A stretch of 64,000 nucleotides of DNA, taken from contig OZ024745.1 in NCBI GenBank assembly GCA_964016885.1, positions 91,016,001 through 91,080,000 of the forward strand, given 5' to 3'. Position 1 is the stretch's first letter, and each line of letters opens with the position of its first letter. Source of the stretch: Eledone cirrhosa. Taxonomy: Eukaryota. This document shows positions 1 to 63,945 of this stretch, piece by piece. The notes under the pieces are model-generated. The model was given only the letters and a program-made list of their open reading frames with translations. It made no database searches and was not told the origin of the DNA. Both the position numbers and the translations under genes were made by a program.

Positions 1-3000
1 AAGTGTGTTAAACAACATTGCAAGCCCACTAAAAGTGTTTTAAACAACATTGCAAGCCCACTAAAAGTGTTTTAAACAACATTGCAAGCCAACTAAAAGT
101 GTATCAAACAAGATTGCAAGCCCACTGAAAGTGTTTTAAACAACATTGCAAGCCCACTGAAAGTGTTTTAAACAACATTGCAAGCCCACAAAAAGTGTGT
201 TAAAGAACATTGCAAGCCCACTAAAAGTGTTTTAAACAACATTGCAAGCCCACTAAAAGTTTTTTAAACAACATTGCATGCCCACAAAAAGTGTTTTAAA
301 GAACATTGCAAGCCCACTAAAAGTGTTTTAAACAACATTGGAAGCCCACTGAAAGTGTTTTAAACAACATTGCATGTCCGCAAAAAGTGTATTAAAGAAC
401 ATTGCAAGCCCACTAAAAGTGTTTTAAACAACATTGCAAGCCCACTAAAAGTGTTTTAAACAACATTGCATGCCCACAAAAAGTGTTTTAAAGAACATTG
501 CAAGCCCACTAAAAGTGTTTTAAACAACATTGCAAACCCACTGAAAGTGTTTTAAACAACATTGCAAGCCCACTGAATGAGTTCTAAACAACATGGCAAG
601 CCCACTGAAAGAGTTTTAAACAACAATGCAAGCCCACTGAAAGTGTTTTAAACAACATTGCAAGCCCACTAAAAGTGTATCAAACAATATTGCAAGCCCA
701 CTGAAAGTGTTTTAAACAACATGGCAATCCCACTGAAAGTGTTTTAAACAACATTGCAAGACCACAAAAAGTGTGTTAAAGAACATTGCAAGCCCACTAA
801 AAGTGTTTTAAACAACATTGCAAGCCCACTAAAAGTGTTGTAAACAACATTGCATGCCCACAAAGAGTGTTTTAAAGAACATTGCAAGCCCACTAAAAGT
901 GTTTTAAACAACATTGCAAGCCCACTGAAAGTGTTTTAAACAACATTGCATGCCCGCAAAAAGTGTATTAAAGAACATTGCAAGCCCACTAAAAGTGTTT
1001 TAAACAACATTGCAAGCCCACTAAAAGTGTTTTAAACAACATTGCATGCCCACAAAAAGTGTTTTAAAGAACATTGCAAGCCCACTAAAAGTGTTTTGAA
1101 CAACATTGCAAACCCACTGAAAGAGTTTTAAACAACATTGCAAGCTCACTGAATGAGTTCTAAACAACATGGCAAGCCCACTGAAAGAGTTTTAAACAAC
1201 AATGCAAGCCCACTGAAAGTGTTTTTAACAACATTGCAAGCCCACTGAAAGAGTTTTAAACAACATTGCAAGCCCACTGAATGAGTTCTAAACAACATGG
1301 CAAGCCCACTGAAAGAGTTTTAAACAACAATGCAAGCCCACTGAAAGTGTTTTTAACAACATTGCAAGCCCACTAAAAGAGTTTTAAACAACATTGCAAG
1401 CCCACTGAAAGAGTTTTAAACAACAATGCAAGCCCAGTGAAAGTGTATTAAACAACATTGCAAGCCCACTGAAAGTGTTTTAAACAACATTGCAAGCCCA
1501 CTGAAAGAGTTTTAAACAACATTGCAAGCCCACTGAAAGTGTTTTAAACAACATTGCAAGCCCACTAAAAGTGTTTTAAACAACATTGCAAGCCCACTAA
1601 AAGTGTTTTAAACAACATTGCATGCCCACAAAAAGTGTTTTAAAGAACATTGCAAGCCCACTAAAAGTGTTTTAAACAACATTTCATGCCCACTAAAAGT
1701 GTTTTAAACAACATTACATGCCCACAAAAAGTGTTTTAAAGAACATTGCAAGCCCACTAAAAGTGTTTTAAACAACATTGCAAGCCCACTAAAAGTGTTT
1801 TAAACAACATTGCAAGCCCACTAAAAGTGTTTTAAACAACATTCCAAGCCCACTAAAAGTGTTTTAAACAACATTGCAAGCCCACTGAAAGAGTTTTAAA
1901 CAACATTGGAAGCCCACTAAAAGTGTTTTAAACAACAATGCAAGCCCACTGAAAGTGTTTTTAACAACATAGCAAGCCCACTGAAAGAGTTTTAAACAAC
2001 ATTGCAAGCCCACTGAATGAGTTCTAAACAACATGGCAAGCCCACTGAAAGAGTTATAAACAACAATGCAAGCCCACTGAAAGTGTTTTTAACAACATTG
2101 CAAGCCCACTGAAAGAGTTTTAAACAACATTGCAAGCCCACTGAAAGAGTTTTAAACAACATTGCAAACCCACTAAAGAGTTTTAAACAACATTGTAAGC
2201 CCACTGAAAGAGTTTTAAACAACAATGCAAGCCCAGTGAAAGTGTTTTAAACAACATTGCAAGCCCACTGAAAGTGTTTTAAACAACATTGCAAGCCCAC
2301 TGAAAGAGTTTTAAACAACATTGCAAGACCACTGAAAGAGTTTTAAACAACATTGCAAGCCCACTAAAAGTGTTTTAAACAACATTGCAAGCCCACTGAA
2401 AGTGTTTTAAACAACATTGCAAGCCCACTAAAAGTGTTTTAAACAACATTGCAAGCCCACTAAAAGTGTTTTAAACAACATTGAAAGCCCACTAAAAGTG
2501 TATCAAATAATATTGCAAGCCCACTGAAAGTGTTTTAAACAACATTGCAAGCCCACTGAAAGTGTTTTAAACAACATTGCATGCCCACTAAAAGTGTTTT
2601 AAACAACATTGCAAGCCCACTGAGAGAGTTTTAAACAACATTGCAAGCCCACTGTAGGAGTTTTAAAGAACATTGCAAGCCCACTAAAAGTGTCTTAAAT
2701 AACATTGGAAGCCCACTGAAAGTTTTTTAAACAACATTGCAAGCCCACTGAAAGAGTTTTAAACAACAATGCAAGCCCAGTGAAAGTGTATTAAACAACA
2801 TTGCAAGCCCACTGAAAGTGTTTTAAACAACATTGCAAGCCCACTGAAAGAGTTTTAAACAACATTGCAAGCCCACTGAAAGTGTTTTAAACAACATTGC
2901 AAGCCCACTAAAAGTGTTTTAAACAACATTGCAAGCCCACTAAAAGTGTTTTAAACAACATTGCATGCCCACAAAAAGTGTTTTAAAGAACATTGCAAGC

Positions 3001-6000
3001 CCACTAAAAGTGTTTTAAACAACATTTCATGCCCACTAAAAGTGTTTTAAACAACATTACATGCCCACAAAAAGTGTTTTAAAGAACATTGCAAGCCCAC
3101 TAAAAGTGTTTTAAACAACATTGCAAGCCCACTAAAAGTGTTTTAAACAACATTGCAAGCCCACTAAAAGTGTTTTAAACAACATTGCAAGCCCACTAAA
3201 AGTGTTTTAAACAACATTGCAAGCCCACTGAAAGAGTTTTAAACAACATTGGAAGCCCACTAAAAGTGTTTTAAACAACAATGCAAGCCCACTGAAAGTG
3301 TTTTTAACAACATAGCAAGCCCACTGAAAGAGTTTTAAACAACATTGCAAGCCCACTGAATGAGTTCTAAACAACATGGCAAGCCCACTGAAAGAGTTAT
3401 AAACAACAATGCAAGCCCACTGAAAGTGTTTTTAACAACATTGCAAGCCCACTGAAAGAGTTTTAAACAACATTGCAAGCCCACTGAAAGAGTTTTAAAC
3501 AACATTGCAAACCCACTAAAGAGTTTTAAACAACATTGTAAGCCCACTGAAAGAGTTTTAAACAACAATGCAAGCCCAGTGAAAGTGTTTTAAACAACAT
3601 TGCAAGCCCACTGAAAGTGTTTTAAACAACATTGCAAGCCCACTGAAAGAGTTTTAAACAACATTGCAAGACCACTGAAAGAGTTTTAAACAACATTGCA
3701 AGCCCACTAAAAGTGTTTTAAACAACATTGCAAGCCCACTGAAAGTGTTTTAAACAACATTGCAAGCCCACTAAAAGTGTTTTAAACAACATTGCAAGCC
3801 CACTAAAAGTGTTTTAAACAACATTGAAAGCCCACTAAAAGTGTATCAAATAATATTGCAAGCCCACTGAAAGTGTTTTAAACAACATTGCAAGCCCACT
3901 GAAAGTGTTTTAAACAACATTGCATGCCCACTAAAAGTGTTTTAAACAACATTGCAAGCCCACTGAGAGAGTTTTAAACAACATTGCAAGCCCACTGTAG
4001 GAGTTTTAAAGAACATTGCAAGCCCACTAAAAGTGTCTTAAATAACATTGGAAGCCCACTGAAAGTTTTTTAAACAAGATTGCAAGCCCACTGAAAGAGT
4101 TTTAAACAACAATGCAAGCCCACTGAAAGTGTTTTTAACAACATTGCAAGCCCACTGAAAGAGTTTTAAACAACATTGCAAGCCCACTGAAAGAGTTTTA
4201 AACAACATTGAAAACCCACTGAAAGAGTTTTAAACAACATTGCAAGCCCACTGAATGAGTTCTAAACAATATGGCAAGCCCACTGAAAGACTTTTAAACA
4301 ACAATGCAAGCCCACTGAAAGTGTTTTTAACAACATTGCAAGCCCACTGAAAGAGTTTTAAACAACATTGCAAGCCCGCTGAAAGAGTTTTAAACAACAT
4401 TGCAAACCCACTAAAGAGTTTTAAACAACATTGTAAGCCCACTGAAAGAGTTTTAAACAACAATGCACGCCCAGTGAAAGTGTTTTAAACAACATTGCAA
4501 GCCCACTGAAAGTGTTTTAAACAACATTGCAAGCCCACTGAAAGAGTTTTAAACAACATTGCAAGCCCACTGAAAGTGTTTTAAACAACATTGCAAGCCC
4601 ACTAAAAGTGTTTTAAACAACATTGCAAGCCCACTGAAAGTGTTTTAAACAACATTGAAAGCCCACTAAAAGTGTATCAAACAATAATGCAAGCCCACTG
4701 AAAGTGTTTTAAAGAACATTGCAAGCCCACTGAAAGTGTTTTAAACAACATTGCAAGCCCACAAAAAGTGTGTTAAATAACATTGCAAGCCCACTAAAAG
4801 TGTTTTAAACAACATTGCAAGCCCACTAAAAGTGTTTTAAACAACATTGCATGCCAACAAAAAAGCGTTTTAAAGAACATTGCAAGCCCACTAAAAGTGT
4901 TTTAAACAACATTGCATGCCCACTAAAAGTGTTTTAAACAACATTGCAAGCCCACTAAAAGTGTTTTAAACAACATTGCAAGCCCACTAAAAGTGTTTTA
5001 AACAACATTGCATGCCCACAAAAAGTGTTTTAAAGAACATTGCAAGCCCACTGAAAGAGTTTTAAACAACATTGCAAGCCCACTGTAGAAGTTTTAAAGA
5101 ACATTGCAAGCCCACTAAAAGTGTTTTAAATAACGTTGGAAGCCCACTGAAAGTTTTTTAAACAACATTGCAAGCCCACTAAAAGTGTTTTAAACAACAT
5201 TGCAAGCCCACTAAAAGTGTTTTAAACAACATTGCAAACCCACTGAAAGAGTTTTAAACAACATTGCAAGCCCACTGAATGAGTTCTAAACAACATGGCA
5301 AGCCCACTGAAAAAGTTCTAAACAACAATGCAAGCCCACTGAAAGTGTTTTTAACAACATAGCAAGCCCACTGAATGAGTTTTAAACAACATTGCAAGCC
5401 CACTGAATGAGTTCTAAACAACATGGCAAGCCCACTGAAAGTGTTTTTAACAACATTGCAAGCCCACTGAAAGTGTTTTTAACAACATTGCAAGCCCACT
5501 GAAAGAGTTTTAAACAACATTGCAAGCCCACTGAAAGAGTTTTAAACAACATTGCAAACCCACTAAAGAGTTTTAAACAACATTGTAAGCCCACTGAAAG
5601 AGTTTTAAACAACAATGCAAGCCCAGTGAAAGTGTTCTAAACAATATTGCAAGCCCACTGAAAGTGTTTTAAACAACATTGCAAGCCCACTGAAAGAGTT
5701 TTAAACAACATTGCAAGACCACTGAAAGAGTTTTAAACAACATTGCAAGCCCACTAAAAGTGTTTTAAACAACATTGCAAGCCCACTGAAAGTGTTTTAA
5801 ACAACATTGCAAGCCCACTAAAAGTGTTTTAAACAACATTGCAAGCCCACTAAAAGTGTTTTAAACAACATTGAAAGCCCACTAAAAGTGTATCAAACAA
5901 TATTGCAAGCCAACTGAAAGTGTTTTAAACAACATTGCAAGCCCACTGAAAGTGTTTTAAACAACATTGCATGCCCACAAAAAGTGTTTTAAAGAACATT

Positions 6001-9000
6001 GCAAGCCCACTAAAAGTGTTTTAAACAACATTGCAAGCCCACTGAAAGAGTTTTAAACAACATTGCAAGCCCACTAAAAGTGTTTTAAACAACATTGCAT
6101 GCCCACTAAAAGTGTTTTAAACAACATTACATGCCCACAAAAAGTGTTTTAAAGAACATTGCAAGCCCACTAAAAGTGTTTTAAACAACATTGCAAGCCC
6201 ACTAAAAGTGTTTTAAACAACATTGCAAGCCCACTAAAAGTGTTTTAAACAACATTTCAAGCCCACTAAAAGTGTTTTAAACAACATTGCAAGCCCACTG
6301 AAAGAGTTTTAAACAACATTGCAAGCCCACTAAAAGTGTTTTAAACAACATTGCATGCCCACTAAAAGTGTTTTAAACAACATTGCAAGCCCACTGAAAG
6401 AGTTTTAAACAACATTGCAAGCCCACTGTAGGAGTTTTAAAGAACATTGCAAGCCCACTAAAAGTGTCTTAAATAACATTGGAAGCCCACTGAAAGTGTT
6501 TTAAACAACATTGCAAGCCCACTGAAAGAGTTTTAAACAACAATGCAAGCCCACTGAAAGTGTTTTTAACAACATTGCAAGCCCACTGAAAGAATTTTAA
6601 ACAACATTGCAAGCCCACTGAAAGAGTTTTAAACAACATTGAAAACCCACTGAAAGAGTTTTAAACAACATTGCAAGCCCACTGAATGAGTTCTAAACAA
6701 CATGGTAAGCCCACTGAAAGAGTTTTAAACAACAATGCAAGCCCACTGAAAGTGTTTTTAACAACATTGCAAGCCCACTGAAAGAGTTTTAAACAACATT
6801 GCAAGCCCGCTGAAAGAGTTTTAAACAACATTGCAAACCCACTAAAGAGTTTTAAACAACATTGTAAGCCCACTGAAAGAGTTTTAAACAACAATGCAAG
6901 CCCAGTGAAAGTGCTTTAAACAACATTGCAAGCCCACTGAAAGTGTTTTAAACAACATTGCAAGCCCACTGAAAGAGTTTTAAACAACATTGCAAGACCA
7001 CTGAAAAAATTTTAAACAACATTGCAAGCCCACTAAAAGTGTTTTAAACAACATTGCAAGCCCACTGAAAGAGTTTTAAACAACATTGCAAACCCACTAA
7101 AGAGTTTTAAACAACATCGTAAGCCCACTGAATGAGTTCTAAACAACATTGCAAGCCCGCTGAAAGAGTTTTAAACAACATTGCAAGACCACTGAAAGAG
7201 TTTTAAACAACATTGCAAGCCCACTAAAAGTGTTTTAAACAACATTGCAAGCCCACTGAAAGTGTTTTAAACAACATTGCAAGCCCACTAAAAGCGTTTT
7301 AAACAACATTGCAAGCCCACTAAAAGTGTTTTAAACAACATTGAAAGCCCACTAAAAGTGTATCAAACAATATTGCAAGCCCACTGAAAGTGTTTTAAAC
7401 AACATTGCAAGCCCACTGAAAGTGTTTTAAACAACATTGCAAGCCCACAAAAAGTGTGTTAAAGAACATTGCAAGCCCACTAAAAGTGTTTTAAACAACA
7501 TTGCAAGCCCACTAAAAGTGTTTTAAACAACATTGCATGCCCACAAAAAAGCGTTTTAAAGAACATTGCAAGCCCACTAAAAGTGTTTTAAACAACATTG
7601 CAAGCCCACTGAAAGTGTTTTAAACAACATTGCATGCCCACAAAAAGTGTTTTAAAGAACATTGCAAGCCCACTAAAAGTGTTTTAAACAACATTGCAAG
7701 CCCACTAAAAGTGTTTTAAACAACATTGCATGCCCACAAAAAGTGTTTTAAAGAACATTGCAAGCCCACTAAAAGTGTTTTAAACAACATTTCATGCCCA
7801 CTAAAAGTGTTTTAAACAACATTACATGCCCACAAAAAGTGTTTTAAAGAACATTGCAAGCCCACTAAAAGTGTTTTAAACAACATTGCAAGCCCACTAA
7901 AAGTGTTTTAAACAACATTGCAAGCCCACAAAAAGTGTTTTAAACAACATTGCAAGCCCACTAAAAGTGTTTTAAACAACATTGCAAACCCACTGAAAGA
8001 GTTTTAAACAACATTGCAAGCCCACTGAATGAGTTCTAAACAACATGGCAAGCCCACTGAAAGAGTTTTAAACAACAATGCAAGCCCACTGAAAGTGTTT
8101 TTAACAACATAGCAAGCCCACTGAAAGAGTTTTAAACAACATTGCAAGCCCACTGAAAGAGTTTTAAACAACATTGCAAACCCACTAAAGAGTTTTAAAC
8201 AACATTGTAAGCCCACTGAAAGAGTTTTAAACAACAATGCAAGCCCAGTGAAAGTGTTTTAAACAACATTGCAAGCCCACTAAAAGTGTTTTAAACAACA
8301 TTGCAAGCCCACTGAAAGAGTTTTAAACAACATTGCAAGCCCACTAGAAGTGTTTTAAACAACATTGCAAGCCGACTGAAAGAGTTTTAAACAACATTGC
8401 AAGACCACTGAAAGAGTTTTAAACAACATTGCAAGCCCACTAAAAGTGTTTTAAATAACATTGCAAGCCCACTGAAAGTGTTTTAAACAACATTGCAAGC
8501 CCACTAAAAGTGTTTTAAACAACATTGCAAGCCCACTAAAAGTGTTTTAAACAACATTGAAAGCCCACTAAAAGTGTATCAAACAATATTGCAAGCCCGC
8601 TGAAAGTGTTCTAAACAACACTGTAAGCCCACTGAAAGTGTTTTAAACAACATTGCAAGCCCACAAAAAGTGTGTTAAAGAACATTGCAAGCCCACTAAA
8701 AGTGTTTTAAACAACATTGCAAGCCCACTAAAAGTGTTTTAAACAACATTACATGCCCACAAAAAGTGTTTTAAAGAACATTGCAAGCCCACTAAAAGTG
8801 TTTTAAACAACATTGCAAGCCCACTGAAAGAGTTTTAAACAACATTGCAAGCCCACTAAAAGTGTTTTAAACAACATTGCATGCCCACTAAAAGTGTTTT
8901 AAACAACATTGCAAGCCCACTGAAAGAGTTTTAAACAACATTGCAAGCCCACTGATAGAGTTTTAAACAACATTGAAAACCCACTGAAAGAGTTTTAAAC

Positions 9001-11594
9001 AACATTGCAAGCCCACTGAATGAGTTCTAAACAACATGGCAAGCCCACTGAAAGAGTTTTAAACAACAATGCAAGCCCACTGAAAGTGTTTTTAACAACA
9101 TTGCAAGCCCACTGAAAGAGTTTTAAACAACATTGCAAGCCCGCTGAAAGAGTTTTAAACAACATTGCAAACCCACTAAAGAGTTTTAAACAACATTGTA
9201 AGCCCACTGAAAGAGTTTTAAACAACAATGGAAGCCCAGTGAAAGTGTTTTAAACAACATTGCAAGCCCACTGAAAGTGTTTTAAACAACATTGCAAGCC
9301 CACTAAAAGTGTTTTAAACAACATTGCAAGCCCACTAAAAGTGTTTTAAACAACATTGCAAGCCCACTAAAAGTGTTTTAAACAACATTGCAAGCCCACT
9401 GAAAGAGTTTTAAACAACATTGCAAGCCCACTAGAAGTGTTTTAAACAACATTGCATGCCCACTAAAAGTGTTTTAAACAACATTGCAAGCCCACTGTAG
9501 GAGTTTTAAAGAACATTGCAAGCCCACTAAAAGTGTCTTAAATAACATTGGAAGCCCACTGAAAGTTTTTTAAACAACATTGCAAGCCCACTAAAAGTAT
9601 TTTAAACAACATTGCAAGCCCACTAAAAGTGTTTTAAACAACATTGCATGCCCACAAAAAGTGTTTTAAAGAACATTGCAAGCCCACTAAAAGTGTTTTA
9701 AACAACATTGCAAACCCACTGAAAGAGTTTTAAACAACATTGCAAGCCCACTGAATGAGTTCTAAACAACATGGCAAGCCCACTGAAAGAGTTTTAAACA
9801 ACAATGCAAGCCCACTGAAAGTGTTTTTAACAACATAGCAAGCCCACTGAAAGAGTTTTAAACAACATTGCAAGCCCACTGAAAGAGTTTTAAACAACAT
9901 TGCAAACCCACTAAAGAGTTTTAAACAACATTGTAAGCCCACTGAAAGAGTTTTAAACAACAATGCAAGCCCAGTGAAAGTGTTTTAAACAACATTGCAA
10001 GCCCACTAAAAGTGTTTTAAACAACATTGCAAGCCCACTGAAAGAGTTTTAAACAACATTGCAAGCCCACTAGAAGTGTTTTAAACAACATTGCAAGCCC
10101 ACTGAAAGAGTTTTAAACAACATTGCAAGACCACTGAAAGTGTTTTAAACAACATTGCAAGCCCACTAAAAGTGTTTTAAACAACATTGCAAGCCCACTA
10201 AAAGTGTTTTAAACAACATTGAAAGCCCACTAAAAGTGTATCAAACAATATTGCAAGCCCACTGAAAGTGTTTTAAACAACACTGTAAGCCCACTGAAAG
10301 TGTTTTAAACAACATTGCAAGCCCACAAAAAGTGTGTTAAAGAACATTGCAAGCCCACTAAAAGTGTTTTAAACAACATTGCAAGCCCACTAAAAGTGTT
10401 TTAAACAACATTGCATGCCCACAAAAAAGCGTTTTAAAGAACATGGCAAGCCCACTAAAAGTGTTTTAAACAACATTGCAAGCCCACTGAAAGTGTTTTA
10501 AACAACATTGCATGCCCACAAAAAGTGTTTTAAAGAACATTGCAAGCCCACTAAAAGTGTTTTAAACAACATTGCAAGCCCACTAAAAGTGTTTTAAACA
10601 ACATTGCATGCCCTCAAAAAGTGTTTTAAAGAACATTGCAAGCCCACTAAAAGTGTTTTAAACAACATTTCATGCCCACTAAAAGTGTTTTAAACAACAT
10701 TACATGCCCACAAAAAGTGTTTTAAAGAACATTGCAAGCCCACTAAAAGTGTTTTAAACAACATTGCAAGCCCACTAAAAGTGTTTTAAACAACATTGCA
10801 AGCCCACTAAAAGTGTTTTAAACAACATTGCAAGCCCACTAAAAGTGTTTTAAACAACATTGCAAGCCCACTGAAAGAGTTTTAAACAACATTGCAAGCC
10901 CACTAAAAGTGTTTTAAACAACATTGCATGCCCACTAAAAGTGTTTTAAACAACATTGCAAGCCCACTGAAAGAGTTTTAAACAACATTGCAAGCCCACT
11001 GTAGGAGTTTTAAAGAACATTGCAAGCCCACTAAAAGTGTCTTAAATAACATTGGAAGCCCACTGAAAGTTTTTTAAACAACATTGCAAGCCCACTGAAA
11101 GAGTTTTAAACAACAATGCACGCCCACTGAAAGTGTTTTTAACAACATTGCAAGCCCACTGAAAGAGTTTTAAACAACATTGCAAGCCCACTGAAAGAGT
11201 TTTAAACAACATTGAAAACCCACTGAAAGAGTTTTAAACAACATTGCAAGCCCACTGAATGAGTTCTAAACAACATGGCAAGCCCACTGAAAGAGTTTTA
11301 AACAACAATGCAAGCCCACTGAAAGTGTTTTTAACAACATTGCAAGCCCACTGAAAGACTTTTAAACAACATTGCAAGCCCGCTGAAAGAGTTTTAAACA
11401 ACTTTGCAAACCCACTAAAGAGTTTTAAACAACATTGTAAGCCCACTGAAAGTGCTTTAAACAACAATGCAAGCCCACTGAAAGTGTTTTAAATAACATT
11501 GCAAGCCCACTAAAATTGTTTTAAATAACAAAACTGTAAGCCCACTGAAAGTGCTTTAAACAACAAAATTGTACGCCCACTGAAAGTGTTTTAA
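1..11594. repeat. 32-bp tandem satellite, about 360 monomers, running off the left edge
   Basis: Unit TTGCAAGCCCACT(G/A)AAAG(T/A)GTTTTAAACAACA repeated head-to-tail with point variants and no unique spacers. Confidence 0.98.
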
Positions 11595-11811
11595 CCCTTT
11601 AGTATTTAAACCGGCCATATCCGGCCAGAATTCTTTCACCTTATTCTGTTCAAAGCAGCCATAACCGTCCACTCATACTGATGTTAAGGTATTCTCAAAA
11701 TAAATAATATCAAAATCTCATAGATTCGATATTATGTGAGATGTTATGTGAGATAAAGCCTTTACCATGAAATTACAATAGTAAATATAGAGTAATGTAA
11801 ATGCTAAAGGG
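11595..11811. mobile_element. piggyBac-like MITE at the satellite edge
   Basis: TTAA|CCCTTTAGTATTTA ... TAAATGCTAAAGGG terminal inverted repeats. Removing it restores GTGTTTTAA|ACAACATTG. Same family at 34598 and 49986 in the opposite orientation. Confidence 0.8.
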
Positions 11812-12250
11812 ACAACATTGCAAGCCTACTAAGTGTTTTAAACAAAATTGGGAGCTCTCTAAAAGGGTTTTAAACAACAACATTGTAAGCTCTCTTAATG
11901 GGTTTTAAACAACAACATTGCAAGCCCTCAAAATTGTTTTAAACAACAACATTGTAAACCCTCTAAAGGGTGTTAAACAATAACATTGCAAGCTTTCTAA
12001 AAGGGTTTTAAATAACAACATTGTAAGCCCTCTAAAAGGATTTTAAACAACATTGTAAGCTCTCTAAAAGGGTGTTAAACTATAACATTGCAAGCTCTCT
12101 AAAAGGGTTTTAAATAACAATATTGTAAGCTCTCTAAAAGGGTTTTAAATAACAACATTGTAGGCCCTCTAAAAGGGTTTTAAACAACATTGTAAGCCCT
12201 CTAAAAGGGTTTTAAACAACAACATTGTAAGCCCTCTAAAAGTGTTTTCA
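11812..12250. repeat. Diverged 31-35 bp satellite monomers (array edge)
   Basis: TTGTAAGC(C/T)CTCTAAAAGGGTTTTAAACAACAACA variants of the main unit. Confidence 0.9.
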
Positions 12251-16635: not shown

Positions 16636-16885
16636 CACAGATATATATATAAACAGAATAAATGGAGAAGGTAATACATTTAAAAACAAACTTTACATCT
16701 CACACAGTGTTTCATCTATACAATATCAAAATAACAGTTCACACATATATGTGTGTGTACTCACTCAGATGATGATGATATATATATATATATATATATG
16801 GAAAGTTATATTTAAATTGTTGGGTTACAACTAGTAAATATTTATAACTGATATAAAAGCACTCGACAAATATTTGGAGTATATT

Positions 16886-17247
16886 TATAATATTAAATAA
16901 ATGGAAACTATATTTATAAAACCATATTTATTTCATTATATATATTTCAGGGATATCATATTAACAATATGCTATGCCTTCCTCAGACAAAATACAATAT
17001 AAACAGTTTTATAGATAAATAGATTCGACATACCGTAACAACATCGACTTGTATTTGAAAAGGTTGATCTGCCAAATCAACCTTTTCAAATACAAGTCGA
17101 TGTTGTTACGGTATGTCGAATCTATTTATCTATAAAACTGTTTATATTGTATTTTGTCTGAGGAAGGCATAGCATATTGTTAATATGATATCCCTGAAAT
17201 ATATATAATGAAATAAATATGGTTTTATAAATATAGTTTCCATTTAT

Positions 17248-17258
<11 letters not shown>
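16886..17258. repeat. Long palindrome: 183-bp arms, 7-nt loop; probable Penelope-like inverted pseudo-LTR
   Basis: Arms 16886-17068 and 17076-17258 read as exact reverse complements around CTGCCAA. Lies between (TA)n tracts. Confidence 0.95.
17150..17215 (+). ncRNA. Minimal type I hammerhead ribozyme motif (mirror copy on - strand at 16929-16994)
   Basis: Stem I TATTTTGT, core CTGAGGA, stem II AGGcATAgCATATT-gtt-AATATGaTATcCCT, GAAA, palindromic stem III TATATA, TA site, stem I' ATGAAATA. Confidence 0.7.
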
Positions 17259-17282
<24 letters not shown>

Positions 17283-37324: not shown

Positions 37325-38293
37325 GTATATATATATAACTGGCCCTCCATAGATTATGAGTGTCTTTATAGTATATATATATAACTACCACTCCATAGAT
37401 TACAAGTGTCTTTATAGTATATATATATAACTACCACTCCATAGATTACAAGTGTCTTTATAGTATATATATATAACTAACACTTCATAGATTACAAGTG
37501 TCTTTATAGTATATATATATATATATAACTAGCACTCGATAGATTACGAGTGTCTTTATAGGATATATATATATAACTGGTCCTCCATAGATTACGAGAG
37601 TCTTTATAGTATATATATATATAACTAACACTCCATAAATTACGAGTGTCTTTATAGTATATATATAACTAACTAACACTCCATAAATTACAAGTGTCTT
37701 TATAGTATACTAGCAGTGGTACCCGGCGTTGCACGGGATTAGGTATTTTGGAACGCGGGCCGCCAACAGACCTAATTGTGGAAAAACTGCATGCCTGAAA
37801 ATATGTAAAGAAAATGAACCAAATACTCTGATGGCTGGATAATCTTTAAGATTTTCCTCGATGAAGCAGGGAAAATGCAGGTTTTCACCTAATGCGGGCC
37901 CTAGGGGATCAAGAAAATGAAATTTTTTTATGTGCATAATATGCTTTGAAATTTCGGGAAAATCGGCTAGACGTAACGCCTCTAAAAAGCTGAAAAAATG
38001 TTTTTCACCTAATGCGGGCCCTAGGCCATAAAAATGTTGGATTTTCTTTGCTCGCGGTATGAAGAAGAGACTGACTAATTAATACATAGTTACAATTTCA
38101 AGGAAATCGGTCTGACATAACACCTCAAAAAACCCATAAAAAGCTTTAAAAATGCAGATTTTCACCTAATGTGGGCCCTAGGTGATCAAAATGTTGATTT
38201 TTTTTAATGTGCATAACACTCCCTGAAACATAAGTAATACACATGTAAAGTTTGAAAAAAATCGGTTGGGTACTTCTCGAGTTTTAGGGATTC

Positions 38294-38330
<37 letters not shown>

Positions 38331-38675
38331 TACATCATCAGGGAAGTAACATAATGCAGACATACAGACAAAAATTATAAGGGCATGACTTTATATGTAT
38401 GTATCTATCTAAAAAGAGAAAGACTAAGAATTATAGAGAGAGATCGCTAAATCGCATAATGCGGTCCCTAGGGCATTGAAATTTGAAAAAATTTTGCTCA
38501 GAACACTCCCTTAAACATAAGTGTTACATGTGTAAAGTTTGAAAATAATCGGTTGGGTGGTTCTCGAGTTTTAGGGATTCAAACTCACACACACACAGAC
38601 AGACATCCTCAGTTTTATTTATATAGATATGTATAACTAGCACTTCATAGAATATGAGTGTCTTTATAGTATATA
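37325..38675. repeat. Minisatellite (~42-50 bp, variable TA core), interrupted by a Helitron
   Basis: AACTA.CACTCCATAGATTACAAGTGTCTTTATAG(TA)n units at 37325-37709, resuming at 38628-38675. Confidence 0.85.
37710..38627 (-). mobile_element. Non-autonomous Helitron
   Basis: Minus strand: 5' TC, hairpin CCCGTGCAACGCCGGG just upstream of 3' CTAG, insertion between A and T with no TSD. Internal TTTTCACCTAATGCGGGCCCTAGG repeats. Confidence 0.8.
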
Positions 38676-41658: not shown

Positions 41659-41735
41659 AGGAAAAAGAAGTTGAAAATGCATTTGGAGTCTTTAAATTTT
41701 AAAGACTCCAAATGCATCTTCAACTTCTTTTTCCT
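41659..41735. repeat. Palindrome with 38-bp arms
   Basis: AGGAAAAAGAAGTTGAAAATGCATTTGGAGTCTTTAAA-T-reverse complement, one mismatch; next to (TA)n. Confidence 0.9.
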
Positions 41736-42383
41736 ATATTTTTACTTGTGTGGGATATAAAAAAAACCTTACTTTCTTATATATCATCATCATCACCGTT
41801 TAACATCCATTTTCCATGCTAGCATGGATTAGATGAACTGTCCCATTGTGAGACAAGCCAGGCTGGATGACCATGTCTGGCTCACACAGAACTGATTTTG
41901 GTTTGGTTTCTATGCCCTTTCTAACACCAACCACATTTACAGTGTGGGCTGGATGCTTTTTGTCGTGACACCTACACGACCACTTTACAGTGTGTACTGG
42001 GCACTTAGAAGAGCTGCACATACCTACTATTTTATTCATTTTGCTATATTTCTTGATTATATTCTATATTATAAAGTATTAAAATGTATATGATACTATC
42101 AAGATAATAAAACACAAATGTATGTGCACCTATACATGTGTATTTTAAATCTTCTAACACATTTTAGTACAAAAATATTTTGTTACGTCAAATTACAATT
42201 ACCATTTCTGATATCAGTTGACCTCTTTTCTTATGCTATCTATCTTTTATGAGTATCCATACAGTTCTAAATAAAATGAGTGTTTGGGAAAAGTAATCAT
42301 TTTGATGAACATTGGGAATGCTTCCTGCTGTTTTGATGACCATTTTGATATCTTAAATTAACATTTTTTTTTTCTACTTCTAG

Positions 42384-57598: not shown

Positions 57599-58550
<952 letters not shown>

Positions 58551-59123
58551 AATAAATGTTATTGTTTATTTTGTAATTGGCACTAAACTCTCCTAGGGGT
58601 ACCACTTCTACCATGTCATAGTACTTCTTCGCTGATTCTTATCATCACAGAACAACCTCTAATTTAGCTAGTTGAACACAATGTTCTCACACTAACCCTA
58701 TTTCATTTGACCAAGACGACCAAACAATTTGTTTAGTTGATATTTTTTCAGTAATTTCCTGCAAATTCTTTTTATAATTATTTTTACTATCGTGGGCCAT
58801 TTTGTTTGACATAGCTTACAATTTTATTTACCTTAAACTTAGTTATTGATTTGCTCAGCACTGACACAGACACAACTAATCCAGGTAAGTCTTGGACTCA
58901 AGTCTTGAAATCTTAATGTTCCGTGGTATTTCATATCCAATTTTCTCCCTTCTATCTTATATTTGTTTGGGAAACTTTTTTTTTAAATATATCTGAAAAA
59001 TTTTCCTTTATATATATACACACACACACACACATACACGCACACACACGCACACACACATATACATATATAATATATATACATATATATACATATATAT
59101 ACATATATAATATATATATATAC

Positions 59124-59154
<31 letters not shown>

Positions 59155-59296
59155 ACCAAAGTTTATATGGTTCGTTGATTGTTCAACAAATATAATTTTA
59201 CAATAGATTAGAAACACTCGACAGAAATTTTTCTGGAGTATTTAATATTATTTAAAAATATTAATAAATGAAAAATATTCTCATAACCAAAATGTA

Positions 59297-59812
59297 CTAG
59301 CAGTGGTACCCGGCGTTGCACAGGATAAGATATTTTGGAACGCGGGCCGCCAACAGACCTAATCGTGGAAAAACTGCATGCCTGGACAATATGTAAAGAA
59401 AATAAACCGAATACTCTGATGGCTGGATAATCTTTAAGATTTTCCTTGATGAAGCAGGAAAAATGCAGGTTTTCACCTAATGCGGGCCCTAGGGGATCAA
59501 GAAAATAGTTTTTTTTTATGTGCATAATATGCACCTTGAAATTTCGAGAAAATCGGCTAGATGAAGAAGAAACTGGCTAATACATAGTTACAATTTCAAG
59601 GAAATTGGTCTGACGTAACGCCTCAAAAAACCCCTAAAAAGCTGAAAAACGCAGTTTTTCACCTAATGCAGGCCCTAGGGGATCAAAAAGTTGAATTTCT
59701 TTATGTGCATAACACTCCCTGAAACATAAGTAATACACATGTAAAGGTTGAAAAAAATCGGTTGGGTACTTCTCGAGTTTTAGGGATACACACACACTTT
59801 TATATATATAGA
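59297..59812 (-). mobile_element. Non-autonomous Helitron, shorter copy of the 37710 family
   Basis: Same CTAG and hairpin end, same TC start, A|T insertion site. Confidence 0.8.
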
Positions 59813-59815
59813 TTT

Positions 59816-60760
59816 TACATATTTCAAAGGTACAATGGTGTTTCAGTACGTTTTCATCAGACAAAATATATGATTGGATATGTGACATACCACCAAGGTT
59901 TTGATTATTCAATTCCTGTAGTGGTAATGATTTATTTCACCAACCCTCAACGTTTTTATACCACAAATAATAATATAAACTTAGAGAAGAGGACGTAAAG
60001 TAAGGTAGAAACATAGAAGGGGAGTTGAGAGGGAAAATGTGAAGAAAAAGAAGGGAAAAAAATAAATAAAAGAAGAAAAGGGAAGATGCAGAGAAAAAAG
60101 ATGGGGAATAAAGAATACGAAGAAAAAGAAAGGAAAGGATAAAATAGAGGGGAGAATAAGAAACCCGTTGTATTCAAATGCTAGACAAAATTCAAAATTA
60201 AAACTATGTAATTAACTTTGATTGCTATAGAAAGGAATCTATGCCTAATAATCTGGTTATAATATAAACTTATAATTAACTAAAACGTAATCCAATACAA
60301 GCGATAGTCACTGATAAATATTAGGGAAAATTTTTAATTTTTAATTTTGTCTAGCATTTGAATACAACGGGTTTCTATTTTATCCTTTCCTTTCTTTTTC
60401 TTCGTTTTCTTTATTTCCCTTCTTTTTTCTCTCTGCATCTTCCCTTTTTTTTTTCTTCTGTTTTTTATTCCCCATCTTTTCTCTCTGCATCTTCCCTTTT
60501 CTTCTTTTATTTATTTATTTCCCTTCTTTTTCTTCACATTTTCCCTCTCAACTCCCCTTCTATGTTTCTACCTTACTTTACGTCCTCTTCTCTAAGTTTA
60601 TATTATTATTTGTGGTATAAAAACGTTGAGGGTTGGTGAAATAAATCACTGCCACTACAGGAATTGAATAATCAAAACCTTGGCGGTATGTCACATATCC
60701 AATCATATATTTTGTCTGATGAAAACGTACTGAAACACCATTGTACCTTTGAAATATGTA
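59816..60760. repeat. Long inverted repeat: ~390/430-bp arms, ~130-bp spacer; probable Penelope-like inverted pseudo-LTR
   Basis: 59816-60203 is the near-identical reverse complement of 60332-60760. Homology resumes beyond the Helitron (59272-59296 versus 60771-60795). Confidence 0.92.
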
Positions 60761-60771
60761 TAATAAAATAT
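60707..60771 (+). ncRNA. Minimal type I hammerhead ribozyme motif
   Basis: Stem I ATATTTTGT, core CTGATGA, stem II AAAcGTAC-12nt-GTACcTTT, GAAA, TATGTA, TA site, stem I' ATAAAATAT. Confidence 0.72.
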
Positions 60772-60800
60772 ATATTTTGGTCATGAGAATATTTTGAATA

Positions 60801-60891
<91 letters not shown>

Positions 60892-62432: not shown

Positions 62433-63514
62433 ATTAATTTAAATAGAGTATATTTCATTAGAAATTCGGATAGACCAGCATTCTATCCAGAAGGAAATTT
62501 TCCCTCTCCTACTTAGCATTGCACAAAACTAGAACTAAACAATGAAAATAATTAACTTTAATATGTCACATCACAATATTCAATTACTTTTTCTCTACCA
62601 AAATATATTAGACTTCATACCTATATGACCATCAGCTCAGTGTAACTTTTGTATACTATGTTAATATCATAATAAACTACACTCAAAACCAGATATTGTA
62701 CTACTGTGTTGATGAAAAATAAACATTCTACACCAGTCATCATCACCGTTTTACATCCATTCTTCCCTGCTAGCATGGGTTAGATGAGTTGTCCTGTTGT
62801 GCGCAATGCTAGGTCAGGTGACCATGTCTTGCTCATAAAGAACTGATTCTGGCTTGGTTTCTATAGTTGGATGCCCTTCTTATAAATATACAGTTGATAT
62901 AAAGTATTTATTAAGATACAGTGAGAAAATATGTTTGCTTGTGTTTATGCATAATTTTATATATTGAGAATAAATTTCTTCAGCTTCTTGGTCAACTGGC
63001 TTAGGTTATTCTCCACAACTTCATCTCATGTCTTCCCCAGTCTCCCTCTTCCACAGGTTGTATCCACTTTTTCATACAACTCTTGTTCTCCTTATGCATC
63101 ACATGCTCATACCAGTACAGATTCCTCTTATACTAAGCTTTTCTCTCATTTTCAAACTCTATGTCATATGTGTAATAAATCATTTGGTTTGGGGGGGGGG
63201 GGTTTCTCTGCCTGGTTCAATAATTTTGGTGTTTTACTTTTCTTCCGATATCATTGTTTTGTAAATGGTTGTATATTGAAATATATTTAAATGTAAATTA
63301 ATTTGAATTTTAGTTATTTATATATGGAAGATATAGCCAATATTTAAGATCAGTTATTGCAGTCTGCTTGTAAAAAATATATTTACAACATGCAATCAAA
63401 AATGTATGTATACATATACATCCCATTTGGTTATATATATATATATGCAAGCGTGGAATATGGACGTTAAACGACGATGATGATGATATATATATATATA
63501 TATATATAAAATGT

Positions 63515-63672
63515 AAGTCAACAGGTTAAAATTAATTTTGTTTATTCATAGTCGCTGTTATACATATTTCGGTGATAACCATTATGCAACAGCTATGTTG
63601 CATAATGGTTATCACCGAAATATGTATAACAGCAACTATGAATAAACTAAGTTAATTTTAACCTGTTGACTT
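63515..63672. repeat. Palindrome: 77-bp arms, 4-nt loop, with the 3' half of the hammerhead motif
   Basis: Arms 63515-63591 and 63596-63672 with about 3 mismatches; GAAATATGTATA at 63617-63628. Confidence 0.92.
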
Positions 63673-63801
63673 CCACCTCTTATTTATAAATATACTCCAG
63701 AGTAAACAGACCCACCTGTGCACGTCATCAAGTGCATACTGAAGTGTTGGTAGTTAACCAACACATATTCAAATTAATATTATATATATATACATATATA
63801 T

Positions 63802-63910
63802 AGTTTAAGATAGAAATGGCTTCTACGGGACTAGAACTGTTTCATTCAAAAGATGATTTCTTTTGAATGAAACAGTTCTAATCCTGTAGAAGCCATTTCT
63901 ATATTAAACT
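63802..63910. repeat. Palindrome: 52-bp arms, 5-nt loop
   Basis: AGTTTAAGATAGAAATGGCTTCTAC...GTAGAAGCCATTTCTATATTAAACT around TGATT; next to (TA)n. Confidence 0.9.
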
Positions 63911-63945
63911 TGATGTTTACACTCCTCTAATGTATTGAGTACCTT

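What the first reader, a model, noticed from the sequence alone, without database searches (positions are those of the whole stretch)
59155..60802. Second, divergent fold-back element with the same hammerhead architecture, sense to the CCDC149 transcript
Seen: the arms are otherwise dissimilar to the 17-kb palindrome, yet share TATTTTGT-CTGANGA ... GAAATATRTATAAT. Stem II has a different sequence but still pairs, including the same 3-bp base followed by a C-C mismatch. The outer flanks are also related (CACTCGACA..TGGAGTAT..ATAAATG at about 16860 and 59214). Structure conserved while sequence changes argues for a real RNA motif. Inference: if this region is intron 10 of CCDC149, the intact + strand copy (60707-60771) lies in the pre-mRNA, where pairing with the ~390-bp opposite arm could mask it or create an ADAR substrate.
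Basis: partly seen in the sequence, partly recalled or inferred. Interest (0 to 1): 0.8.

Follow-up and report, generated by a model that had tools for sequence, protein, structure and literature searches.

The report
Octopod Penelope retroelement fold-back with hammerhead
This is a broken, folded-back fragment of a known kind of jumping gene (a Hydra-clade Penelope-like retroelement) in an intron of an octopod gene; it carries a hammerhead ribozyme motif shared by tens of thousands of similar copies in the genome, and at this site the ribozyme is likely silent.

Summary
It is a 5'-truncated, inverted-pLTR insertion of a Hydra-clade Penelope-like element (PLE) in CCDC149 intron 10 of an octopod. 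Longer genomic copies carry an RT plus GIY-YIG ORF with Hydra hallmarks (RWR, DKT, CxCx5C, CxxC/CxH) and sit in (TA)n; the 17-kb palindrome is a sister family. The + strand hammerhead (60707-60771) is intact, with a self-complementary stem III typical of dimeric PLE hammerheads. Across families its stems covary and the C·C mismatch is kept (67 of 70 stem II variants). The motif matches 65,195 times in the genome (control 18). Within the family the core decays like the flanks (p=0.28), so no host selection is seen. In the pre-mRNA the motif is predicted to be buried in a ~390-bp duplex. Cleavage and editing at this locus are untested. The open lead is genome-wide: such fold-backs may supply much of the double-stranded RNA behind octopod hyper-editing.

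The parts
57661..57740 (+). CCDC149 coding exon 10; intron 10 starts at 57741 and runs to 110 nt past the window end
   Evidence: tblastn with octopod CCDC149 proteins; splice to exon 11 seen as a loose end of an RNA-type contig of a related species
59007..59154 (.). (TA)n/(CA)n microsatellite, left side of the insertion site
   Evidence: sequence; tail-selected copies end at the same point and mostly run into TA repeats
59155..59245 (-). PLE 'tail' (~90 nt), present on one arm only; equals the start of the next unit's 5' leader in partial tandems; folds into hairpins
   Evidence: in L216, L218, L220, L229 the tail runs on into the leader and ORF start; fold z -3.47
59246..59296 (-). 3' end of the pLTR of the minus-strand copy, downstream of its hammerhead
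   Evidence: matches 60771-60801 in reverse and other copies
59297..59812 (-). Helitron-like non-autonomous insertion (5'-TC, 3'-CTAG, subterminal hairpin, between A and T) that interrupts the minus-strand hammerhead
   Evidence: termini; second copy at about 37710-38628 with the same ends; pieces in 3 of 60 random stretches. Terminal signature recalled from general Helitron knowledge, not from a call
59813..60204 (-). left arm: inverted pLTR/3' UTR copy; its hammerhead (core at 59860-59854) is cut off after stem III and about 7 nt shorter than the family at the cleavage site
60205..60333 (+). loop: 3' UTR sequence of the plus-strand copy, about 0.8 kb downstream of the ORF end in long copies
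   Evidence: 60190-60795 aligns in one piece at 81-85% to L059, L061, L063, L064; 290 candidates in the genome
60334..60801 (+). right arm: pLTR copy ending at the family's fixed tail-less end
   Evidence: same end in 11 of 21 inverted partners exactly, none more than 6 nt further
60707..60771 (+). intact type I hammerhead motif; C·C mismatch 60726/60747; self-complementary stem III segment 60754-60761; predicted cut 60762/60763
60802..60890 (.). (TA)n/(CA)n microsatellite, right side of the insertion site
   Evidence: sequence
16800..17264 (.). comparison element: fold-back of a sister Hydra-clade family, both hammerheads intact, tail at about 16800-16879
   Evidence: its arms flank RT/EN ORF remnants in 4 of 4 long copies fetched

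Best explanation
The element is a 5'-truncated, inverted insertion of a Hydra-clade Penelope-like retroelement, later hit by a Helitron-like insertion, and its hammerhead is the family's pLTR ribozyme motif, which likely works only as a dimer and is predicted to be masked at this site. Shown: family membership, ORF motifs in long copies, (TA)n flanks, one arm with and one without the tail, covariation across families, neutral decay among copies, position in intron 10. Inferred: the element's endonuclease cut a (TA)n tract; reverse transcription started at two fixed points in the RNA, one on each side of the tail, and two short cDNAs were joined back to back, giving the fold-back. In the active element two hammerheads of a tandem transcript would pair through their self-complementary 8-nt segments to form stem III and cut the precursor. 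In CCDC149 pre-mRNA the single intact motif has no same-strand partner nearby and would be zipped into a ~390-bp duplex, so it should not cut; the duplex would be a plausible ADAR substrate and is spliced out with the intron.
For: High copy number (2,257 candidates; 678 exact stem II matches vs 0 control). Window 60190-60795 is continuous with copies that carry RT and GIY-YIG frames. RWR, DKT, CxCx5C, CxxC and CxH are present, as PMC8557442 section 11 defines Hydra. Partial tandems pLTR-tail-ORF in L216, L218, L220, L229. Inverted partner in 21 of 29 tail-selected loci, ending at a fixed point. PMC8557442 describes inverted 5'-truncated copies and one-sided tails as typical of PLEs; PMC11167929 maps two RT start sites to the tail ends in a lizard PLE. 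Covariation: 92.4% of cells paired vs 82.6% shuffled, 13 of 19 pairs with double changes. Active monomer probability about 1e-4; 8-mer self-duplex -4.2 kcal/mol; duplex with left arm -87 vs -4.8 kcal/mol for the lone motif; 61 of 65 nt paired to the left arm. Core not better kept than flanks.
Against: No RT phylogeny was built and Pfam named none of the five frames scanned as RT or GIY-YIG, so clade assignment rests on motifs. No intact ORF of this family was seen; motifs come from several broken copies. The tail (~90 nt) is longer than the 30-40 bp reported. Only 11 of 30 stem II-selected loci had an inverted partner over the pLTR end (some loci are two arms of one insertion, and loci reach only 1.5 kb each side). 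Position 10.1-11.1 is A-U here, not the G-C that PMC4209133 calls highly conserved, so catalytic activity is not assured. The 25 aligned sequences were picked by me from 62 and are related, which inflates covariation measures. No cleavage or editing data at this locus.
Confidence: 0.9

Rival explanations
1. Host-co-opted intronic ribozyme or editing element that regulates CCDC149 by conditional self-cleavage when the left arm is not yet paired or is melted by editing.
For: The intact copy is sense to the gene and in intron 10; its core is perfect; the antisense copy is the broken one.
Against: An intact core is common among copies (53 of 73 spanning the core). The left arm is transcribed first, so pairing can start as soon as the right arm emerges. 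The monomer's active fold is very rare. One such motif lies about every 46 kb in this genome, so an intronic sense copy is expected by chance.
Confidence: 0.04
2. Non-autonomous retrozyme (short tandem hammerhead repeat that makes circular RNA) rather than a truncated autonomous PLE.
For: Type I hammerhead with palindromic stem III; retrozymes are proposed PLE derivatives (10.64898/2026.07.22.740005).
Against: No head-to-tail tandem of a 170-400 nt unit here; copies have variable 5' ends that run back into an RT/EN ORF.
Confidence: 0.03
3. MITE or Foldback DNA transposon whose terminal inverted repeats happen to hold a hammerhead-like string.
For: Long terminal inverted arms, no coding capacity at this locus (no ORF hit in the window).
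Against: Arm length and inner junction differ from copy to copy while the outer ends are fixed and asymmetric; arms flank RT ORFs in long copies; stems covary.
Confidence: 0.02

Closest known systems
Hydra clade of Penelope-like elements, including Hydra-1_Obim of Octopus bimaculoides and Penelope-13_HM (Craig et al. 2021, PMC8557442)
   Same: RT followed by C-terminal GIY-YIG, DKT, CxCx5C linker, CxxC/CxH, (TA)n targets, hammerhead near the 3' end; Penelope-13_HM is listed with a 5'-truncated inverted copy attached.
   Different: RWR instead of RWK; ~90-nt tail; long pyrimidine-rich 3' UTR; the hammerhead has a C·C mismatch in stem II and an all A-U/G-U stem III segment, not seen in the Hydra rows of their File S2. 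The paper reports a small number of extra families; here Hydra-like ORF pieces occur in 8 of 60 random 10-kb stretches.
Minimal/dimeric PLE hammerheads (Cervera and de la Peña 2014, PMC4209133)
   Same: Type I motif in pLTRs, short palindromic helix III, long helix II, many dispersed single copies and opposite-strand pairs 100-700 bp apart, low in vitro activity.
   Different: No extra nucleotide between 9 and 10.1 and no fixed G10.1-C11.1; instead a 3-bp base closed by C·C. Count here (65,195 for one pattern) exceeds the 2,000-9,000 they report per genome, though below the 126,247 axolotl retrozyme motifs (PMC7229834).
Poseidon PLE of Anolis carolinensis (Frangieh et al. 2024, PMC11167929)
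   Same: Two fixed 3' ends bounding a tail; hammerhead in the pLTR. They found no RNA-seq ends at the cut site and cleavage was not needed for insertion in vitro.
   Different: Different clade; mechanism here is inferred by analogy, not tested.
Palindromic repeats as ADAR substrates (Porath et al. 2017, PMC5625713)
   Same: Self-folding repeats drive hyper-editing in frog; Penelope is heavily edited in lizard; octopus has the highest dsRNA potential.
   Different: Octopus was left out of their repeat analysis, so no repeat family was named as the source; editing was not measured here.

Membership tests
Penelope-like element (EN+) | Single ORF with RT followed by GIY-YIG endonuclease | tested here: met
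   RT motifs (GSS..AQVTDL, YRDD) and YIG/RxxxH endonuclease in long copies, by alignment; Pfam scan gave no RT or GIY-YIG hit; only broken copies seen
Penelope-like element (EN+) | pLTRs from partial tandems; inverted 5'-truncated copy; one-sided tail | tested here: met
Penelope-like element (EN+) | Hammerhead motif within the pLTR | tested here: met
Hydra clade | RWK motif near the N-terminus | tested here: met
   present as RWR in 7 of 15 5'-end copies; RWK in homologues P0050, P0052, P0055, P0056
Hydra clade | DKT in place of DKG | tested here: met
   DKT in 14 of 15 5'-end copies
Hydra clade | CxCx5C linker; CxxC and CxH around the conserved E and N | tested here: met
   L064 frame; sister family
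Hydra clade | Insertion into (TA)n | tested here: met
   window flanks; tail ends of L096-L124
Hydra clade | RT phylogeny groups with Hydra, apart from Neptune, Nematis, Poseidon | not tested
   no tree built; reference proteins were seen only as cut text in the supplement
Neptune/Nematis PLE | CX2-5CxxC linker and DKG | tested here: not met
   linker is CxCx5C and motif is DKT
Type I hammerhead ribozyme | Core C3 U4 G5 A6 G8 A9 / G12 A13 A14, A15.1-U16.1, H17 not G | tested here: met
   60716-60722, 60751-60754, 60761-60762; numbering recalled
Type I hammerhead ribozyme | Stems I and II supported by covariation | tested here: met
   4 of 8 stem I pairs and 9 of 9 stem II pairs change on both sides; related, hand-picked sequences
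Type I hammerhead ribozyme | Stable stem III as a monomer | tested here: not met
   2 A-U pairs only; active monomer probability about 1e-4; segment is self-complementary, fitting the dimeric type
Type I hammerhead ribozyme | Match to an Rfam hammerhead model | tested here: not met
   no hammerhead among 63 hits at E<=5
Type I hammerhead ribozyme | Self-cleavage | not testable with these tools
   only contigs were available; they cannot show ends
Non-LTR retrozyme | Head-to-tail tandem of 170-400 nt units, no ORF | tested here: not met
   inverted arrangement; copies run into an ORF
Helitron (inner insertion) | 5'-TC, 3'-CTRR, subterminal hairpin, insertion between A and T | tested here: met
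   both window copies; feature list recalled; no Rep/Hel partner was sought

The most novel reading that the evidence does not exclude
Hydra-clade PLEs have flooded octopod genomes with tens of thousands of hammerhead-bearing fold-backs, which form a leading source of the long double-stranded RNA behind octopus hyper-editing; their hammerheads are a distinct variant in which a conserved C·C mismatch three pairs into stem II is a functional (tertiary or protein-binding) element, and editing of the duplex could unmask intronic ribozymes.
Probability: 0.3. Interest if true: 0.65.

Novelty: new member of a known kind. Interest (0 to 1): 0.33.

Why it matters
The locus itself is most likely a dead retroelement fragment. 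Its value is as a marker of something genome-wide: one hammerhead pattern occurs about once per 46 kb, Hydra-like ORF pieces lie in 8 of 60 random 10-kb stretches, and 16 of 80 local inverted repeats in a 600-kb sample (25% of their arm bases) carry the hammerhead or the TA-plus-tail signature. Octopus has exceptional hyper-editing whose repeat source was not assigned in PMC5625713; this names a testable candidate. The many related families also give a natural mutagenesis series for dimeric PLE hammerheads, including the conserved C·C mismatch.

Tried and rejected
Rfam scan: only microRNA-type hairpin hits below gathering score, no hammerhead; these reflect fold-backs and microsatellites. Pfam scans of five family or neighbour frames and four homologues named no RT or GIY-YIG. 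My first guess of Neptune clade was dropped after reading the Hydra definition. My first guess that the inner insertion was a Helentron-type element was dropped for the TC...CTAG reading. RNA laid on 60204-60800: run X22 (same organism, likely RNA) gave 23 contigs, none at 99% or more, so they come from other copies; three span the predicted cut site; one A>G position (60693) is also in the DNA run, so it is not evidence of editing; X1 gave none. Lack of a locus-specific contig is no evidence either way. Whole-genome counts of intact core versus flank were not obtained; the per-column test on fetched copies was used. The search of earlier findings returned nothing three times. Lünse et al. 2017 (dimeric PLE hammerheads) is not held; it may already show C·C variants. 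A Porath-style measure gave 135 of 3,600 windows (3.75%; 77 without pure TA windows) against their 0.44% for another octopus; method and assembly differ, so the two are not comparable.

Full report
Host and position. The window is G000:C5:91016001-91080000 of a 3.0-Gb genome. An exon product is 93% identical to Octopus vulgaris and Argonauta CCDC149, so the host is an octopod. tblastn places ten coding exons in the window, the tenth at about 57661-57740, and the eleventh 110 nt past the window end. A 2,513-nt contig of run X22 (same organism, kind not on record) covers exactly that exon without differences, and a contig of X1 (related species, RNA by guess) carries exon 10 sequence directly before it. 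The element therefore lies in intron 10, and the + strand is the pre-mRNA sense.

Anatomy. From left to right: (TA)n/(CA)n; a ~90-nt stretch with no partner (59155-59245); 51 nt that mirror the end of the right arm; a 516-bp insertion (59297-59812); the left arm (59813-60204); a 129-nt loop; the right arm (60334-60801); (TA)n/(CA)n. The arms show 372 matches, 12 mismatches and two indels. Read on the minus strand the insertion begins TC, ends CTAG after a hairpin and sits between A and T; a second copy at about 37710-38628 has the same ends. I file it as Helitron-like from recalled terminal features. It cuts the left arm's hammerhead after stem III, so only the + strand motif (60707-60771) is whole.

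The element is a repeat. The right-arm query gave 2,257 candidates, of which 40 were scored at 92-95% identity. A 28-nt stem II pattern of this family has 678 exact matches against 0 for the control. The wider pattern shared with the 17-kb element has 33,139 + 32,056 matches against 3 + 15; among the first 100 listed I counted by eye 17 outward-facing pairs within 5 kb. Of 29 loci picked by the tail alone, 21 have an inverted copy abutting their 5' end (two of them only 30-40 nt); 11 of these partners stop at exactly the point where the window's right arm stops and none runs more than 6 nt further. Among 30 loci picked by stem II, 11 had such a partner by the script's stricter rule.

It is a Hydra-clade Penelope-like element. 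Window 60190-60795 aligns in one piece at 81-85% to four long copies. [quoted passage not shown] Fifteen 5'-end copies give RWR in 7 and DKT in 14, and four show the partial tandem pLTR-tail-leader-ORF. The linker is CxCx5C with CxxC and CxH near the C-terminus. Section 11 of PMC8557442 lists RWK, DKT, CxCX5C, CxxC/CxH, (TA)n insertion and readily found hammerheads as the marks of Hydra; its supplement lists Hydra-1_Obim from Octopus bimaculoides and a Hydra family with an attached inverted copy. Pfam did not name the frames and I built no tree, so the clade rests on motifs. The 17-kb palindrome belongs to a sister family: its arms flank the same kind of ORF in 4 of 4 long copies that I chose for their wide spacing.

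The hammerhead. On 25 sequences that I picked from the 62 distinct ones, 92.4% of cells pair (shuffled 82.6%), 13 of 19 pairs change on both sides, and slid controls fall to 37-52%; both Cs of the mismatch are invariant. C·C is kept in 67 of 70 distinct stem II sequences in all loci fetched by then, a set weighted to this family. The sequences are related, so these figures overstate independence. Stem III is two A-U pairs as a monomer (active fold probability about 1e-4), but the 8-nt segment is self-complementary in both its A and G forms (-5.2 and -4.2 kcal/mol), as expected for the dimeric PLE hammerheads of PMC4209133, which cleave weakly in vitro. Against: no Rfam hammerhead match, folding z -0.03, and A-U rather than G-C at 10.1-11.1.

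No sign of selection at insertion sites. In 76 copies chosen without regard to the core (30 of 30, 26 of 28 and 20 of 28 loci aligned well enough; columns with a second allele of 20% or more were skipped), core positions deviate in 32 of 823 cells and flanks in 196 of 4,034 (Fisher p=0.28); 53 of 73 copies spanning the core have it intact. Two of the three sets are top-scoring hits and so favour young copies. Structure is thus conserved between families, where selection acts on active elements, and decays within them.

How it most likely works. Shown: two fixed 3' ends, variable 5' ends, back-to-back joining, TA targets. Inferred by analogy with PMC11167929, where RT starts at two sites that bound the tail: two cDNAs primed at a cut (TA)n site and joined at their truncated ends. 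Predicted: in CCDC149 pre-mRNA 61 of the 65 motif bases pair with the left arm, at -87 against -4.8 kcal/mol for the lone motif, so cleavage should be suppressed and a long duplex offered to ADAR. RNA data could not test this: X22 holds contigs of other copies (90-99% alike, none at 99% or more), three of which span the cut site.

The wider lead. In 60 stretches of 10 kb taken at round coordinates, non-simple local inverted repeats (40 bp or more, 85% or more, within 2 kb) cover 4.4% of bases. Of 80 such repeats (26,071 arm bases), 4 carry this hammerhead pattern (1,390 bases) and 12 a TA-plus-tail signature (5,097 bases; the tail motif occurs in 2% of random 125-nt stretches; one or two calls are doubtful); 32 more touch TA repeats, 29 are other, and 3 are a satellite or a 100%-identical block. 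Hydra-like ORF pieces occur in 8 of the 60 stretches and lie inside four of the repeats. PMC5625713 reports exceptional dsRNA potential and hyper-editing in octopus without assigning a repeat, and heavy editing of Penelope in lizard. That Hydra fold-backs feed octopod editing is a hypothesis only.

Literature seen. PMC4209133: parts 1-2 of 4. PMC8557442: passages, section 11, supplement rows and part 2 of 59. 10.64898/2026.07.22.740005: part 1 of 5. PMC11167929, PMC6765202, PMC7229834, PMC6962438, PMC5625713, PMC13282606, PMC12988792: passages only. Lünse et al. 2017: not held, known only through PMC6765202. Searches for hammerhead + octopus + Penelope + ribozyme, hammerhead + stem II + C-C mismatch (no paper), and cephalopod editing + Penelope found no report of this motif or its abundance; subscription papers, figures and unread supplements may hold one. 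PMC13282606 shows that Penelope-like expansions in Octopus vulgaris are known.

Verdict. Real, well explained, a new member of a known kind. Interest 0.33, carried by the genome-wide abundance, the C·C variant and the editing lead, not by this locus.

Noticed in passing
window 63508-63780: Third PLE-type fold-back in the same intron, truncated inside stem II so that only the 3' half of the hammerhead remains on each arm; one-sided tail with hairpins (z -3.6).
   Followed up: partly
window 63805-63945 and 41659-41760: Two shorter TA-flanked palindromes with a one-sided extension; likely very short insertions of other PLE families. They cause spurious Rfam microRNA hits.
   Followed up: no
window 37710-38628 and 59297-59812; L104, L006, L011: The same Helitron-like family sits at or beside the pLTR end of this PLE family in three other fetched loci, in L104 at almost the same point next to the hammerhead cut site; may be only a taste for AT-rich targets.
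   Followed up: partly
L149:6105 and L163:4738: A further hammerhead family whose stem III segment is a different 8-nt palindrome with G-C pairs; found with a descriptor that required self-complementarity (9 hits against 2 in the reversed control).
   Followed up: partly
tails of several families (L132, L133, L135, L145, L154, L163, L174): Tails of unrelated-looking families share a short GAGYRCT motif on the 3' side of a hairpin; a candidate recognition signal for the element's protein.
   Followed up: partly
L062:7948-9999: Nearly intact 684-codon Hydra-type ORF of another family.
   Followed up: partly
window 1-12000: Uniform composition with strong GC and AT skew over 12 kb, suggesting a tandem array.
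   Followed up: no
L139:1-2428 and L163:7924-10000: A 100%-identical 751-bp inverted/tandem block (very recent or an assembly artefact) and a palindromic satellite in the random sample.
   Followed up: no
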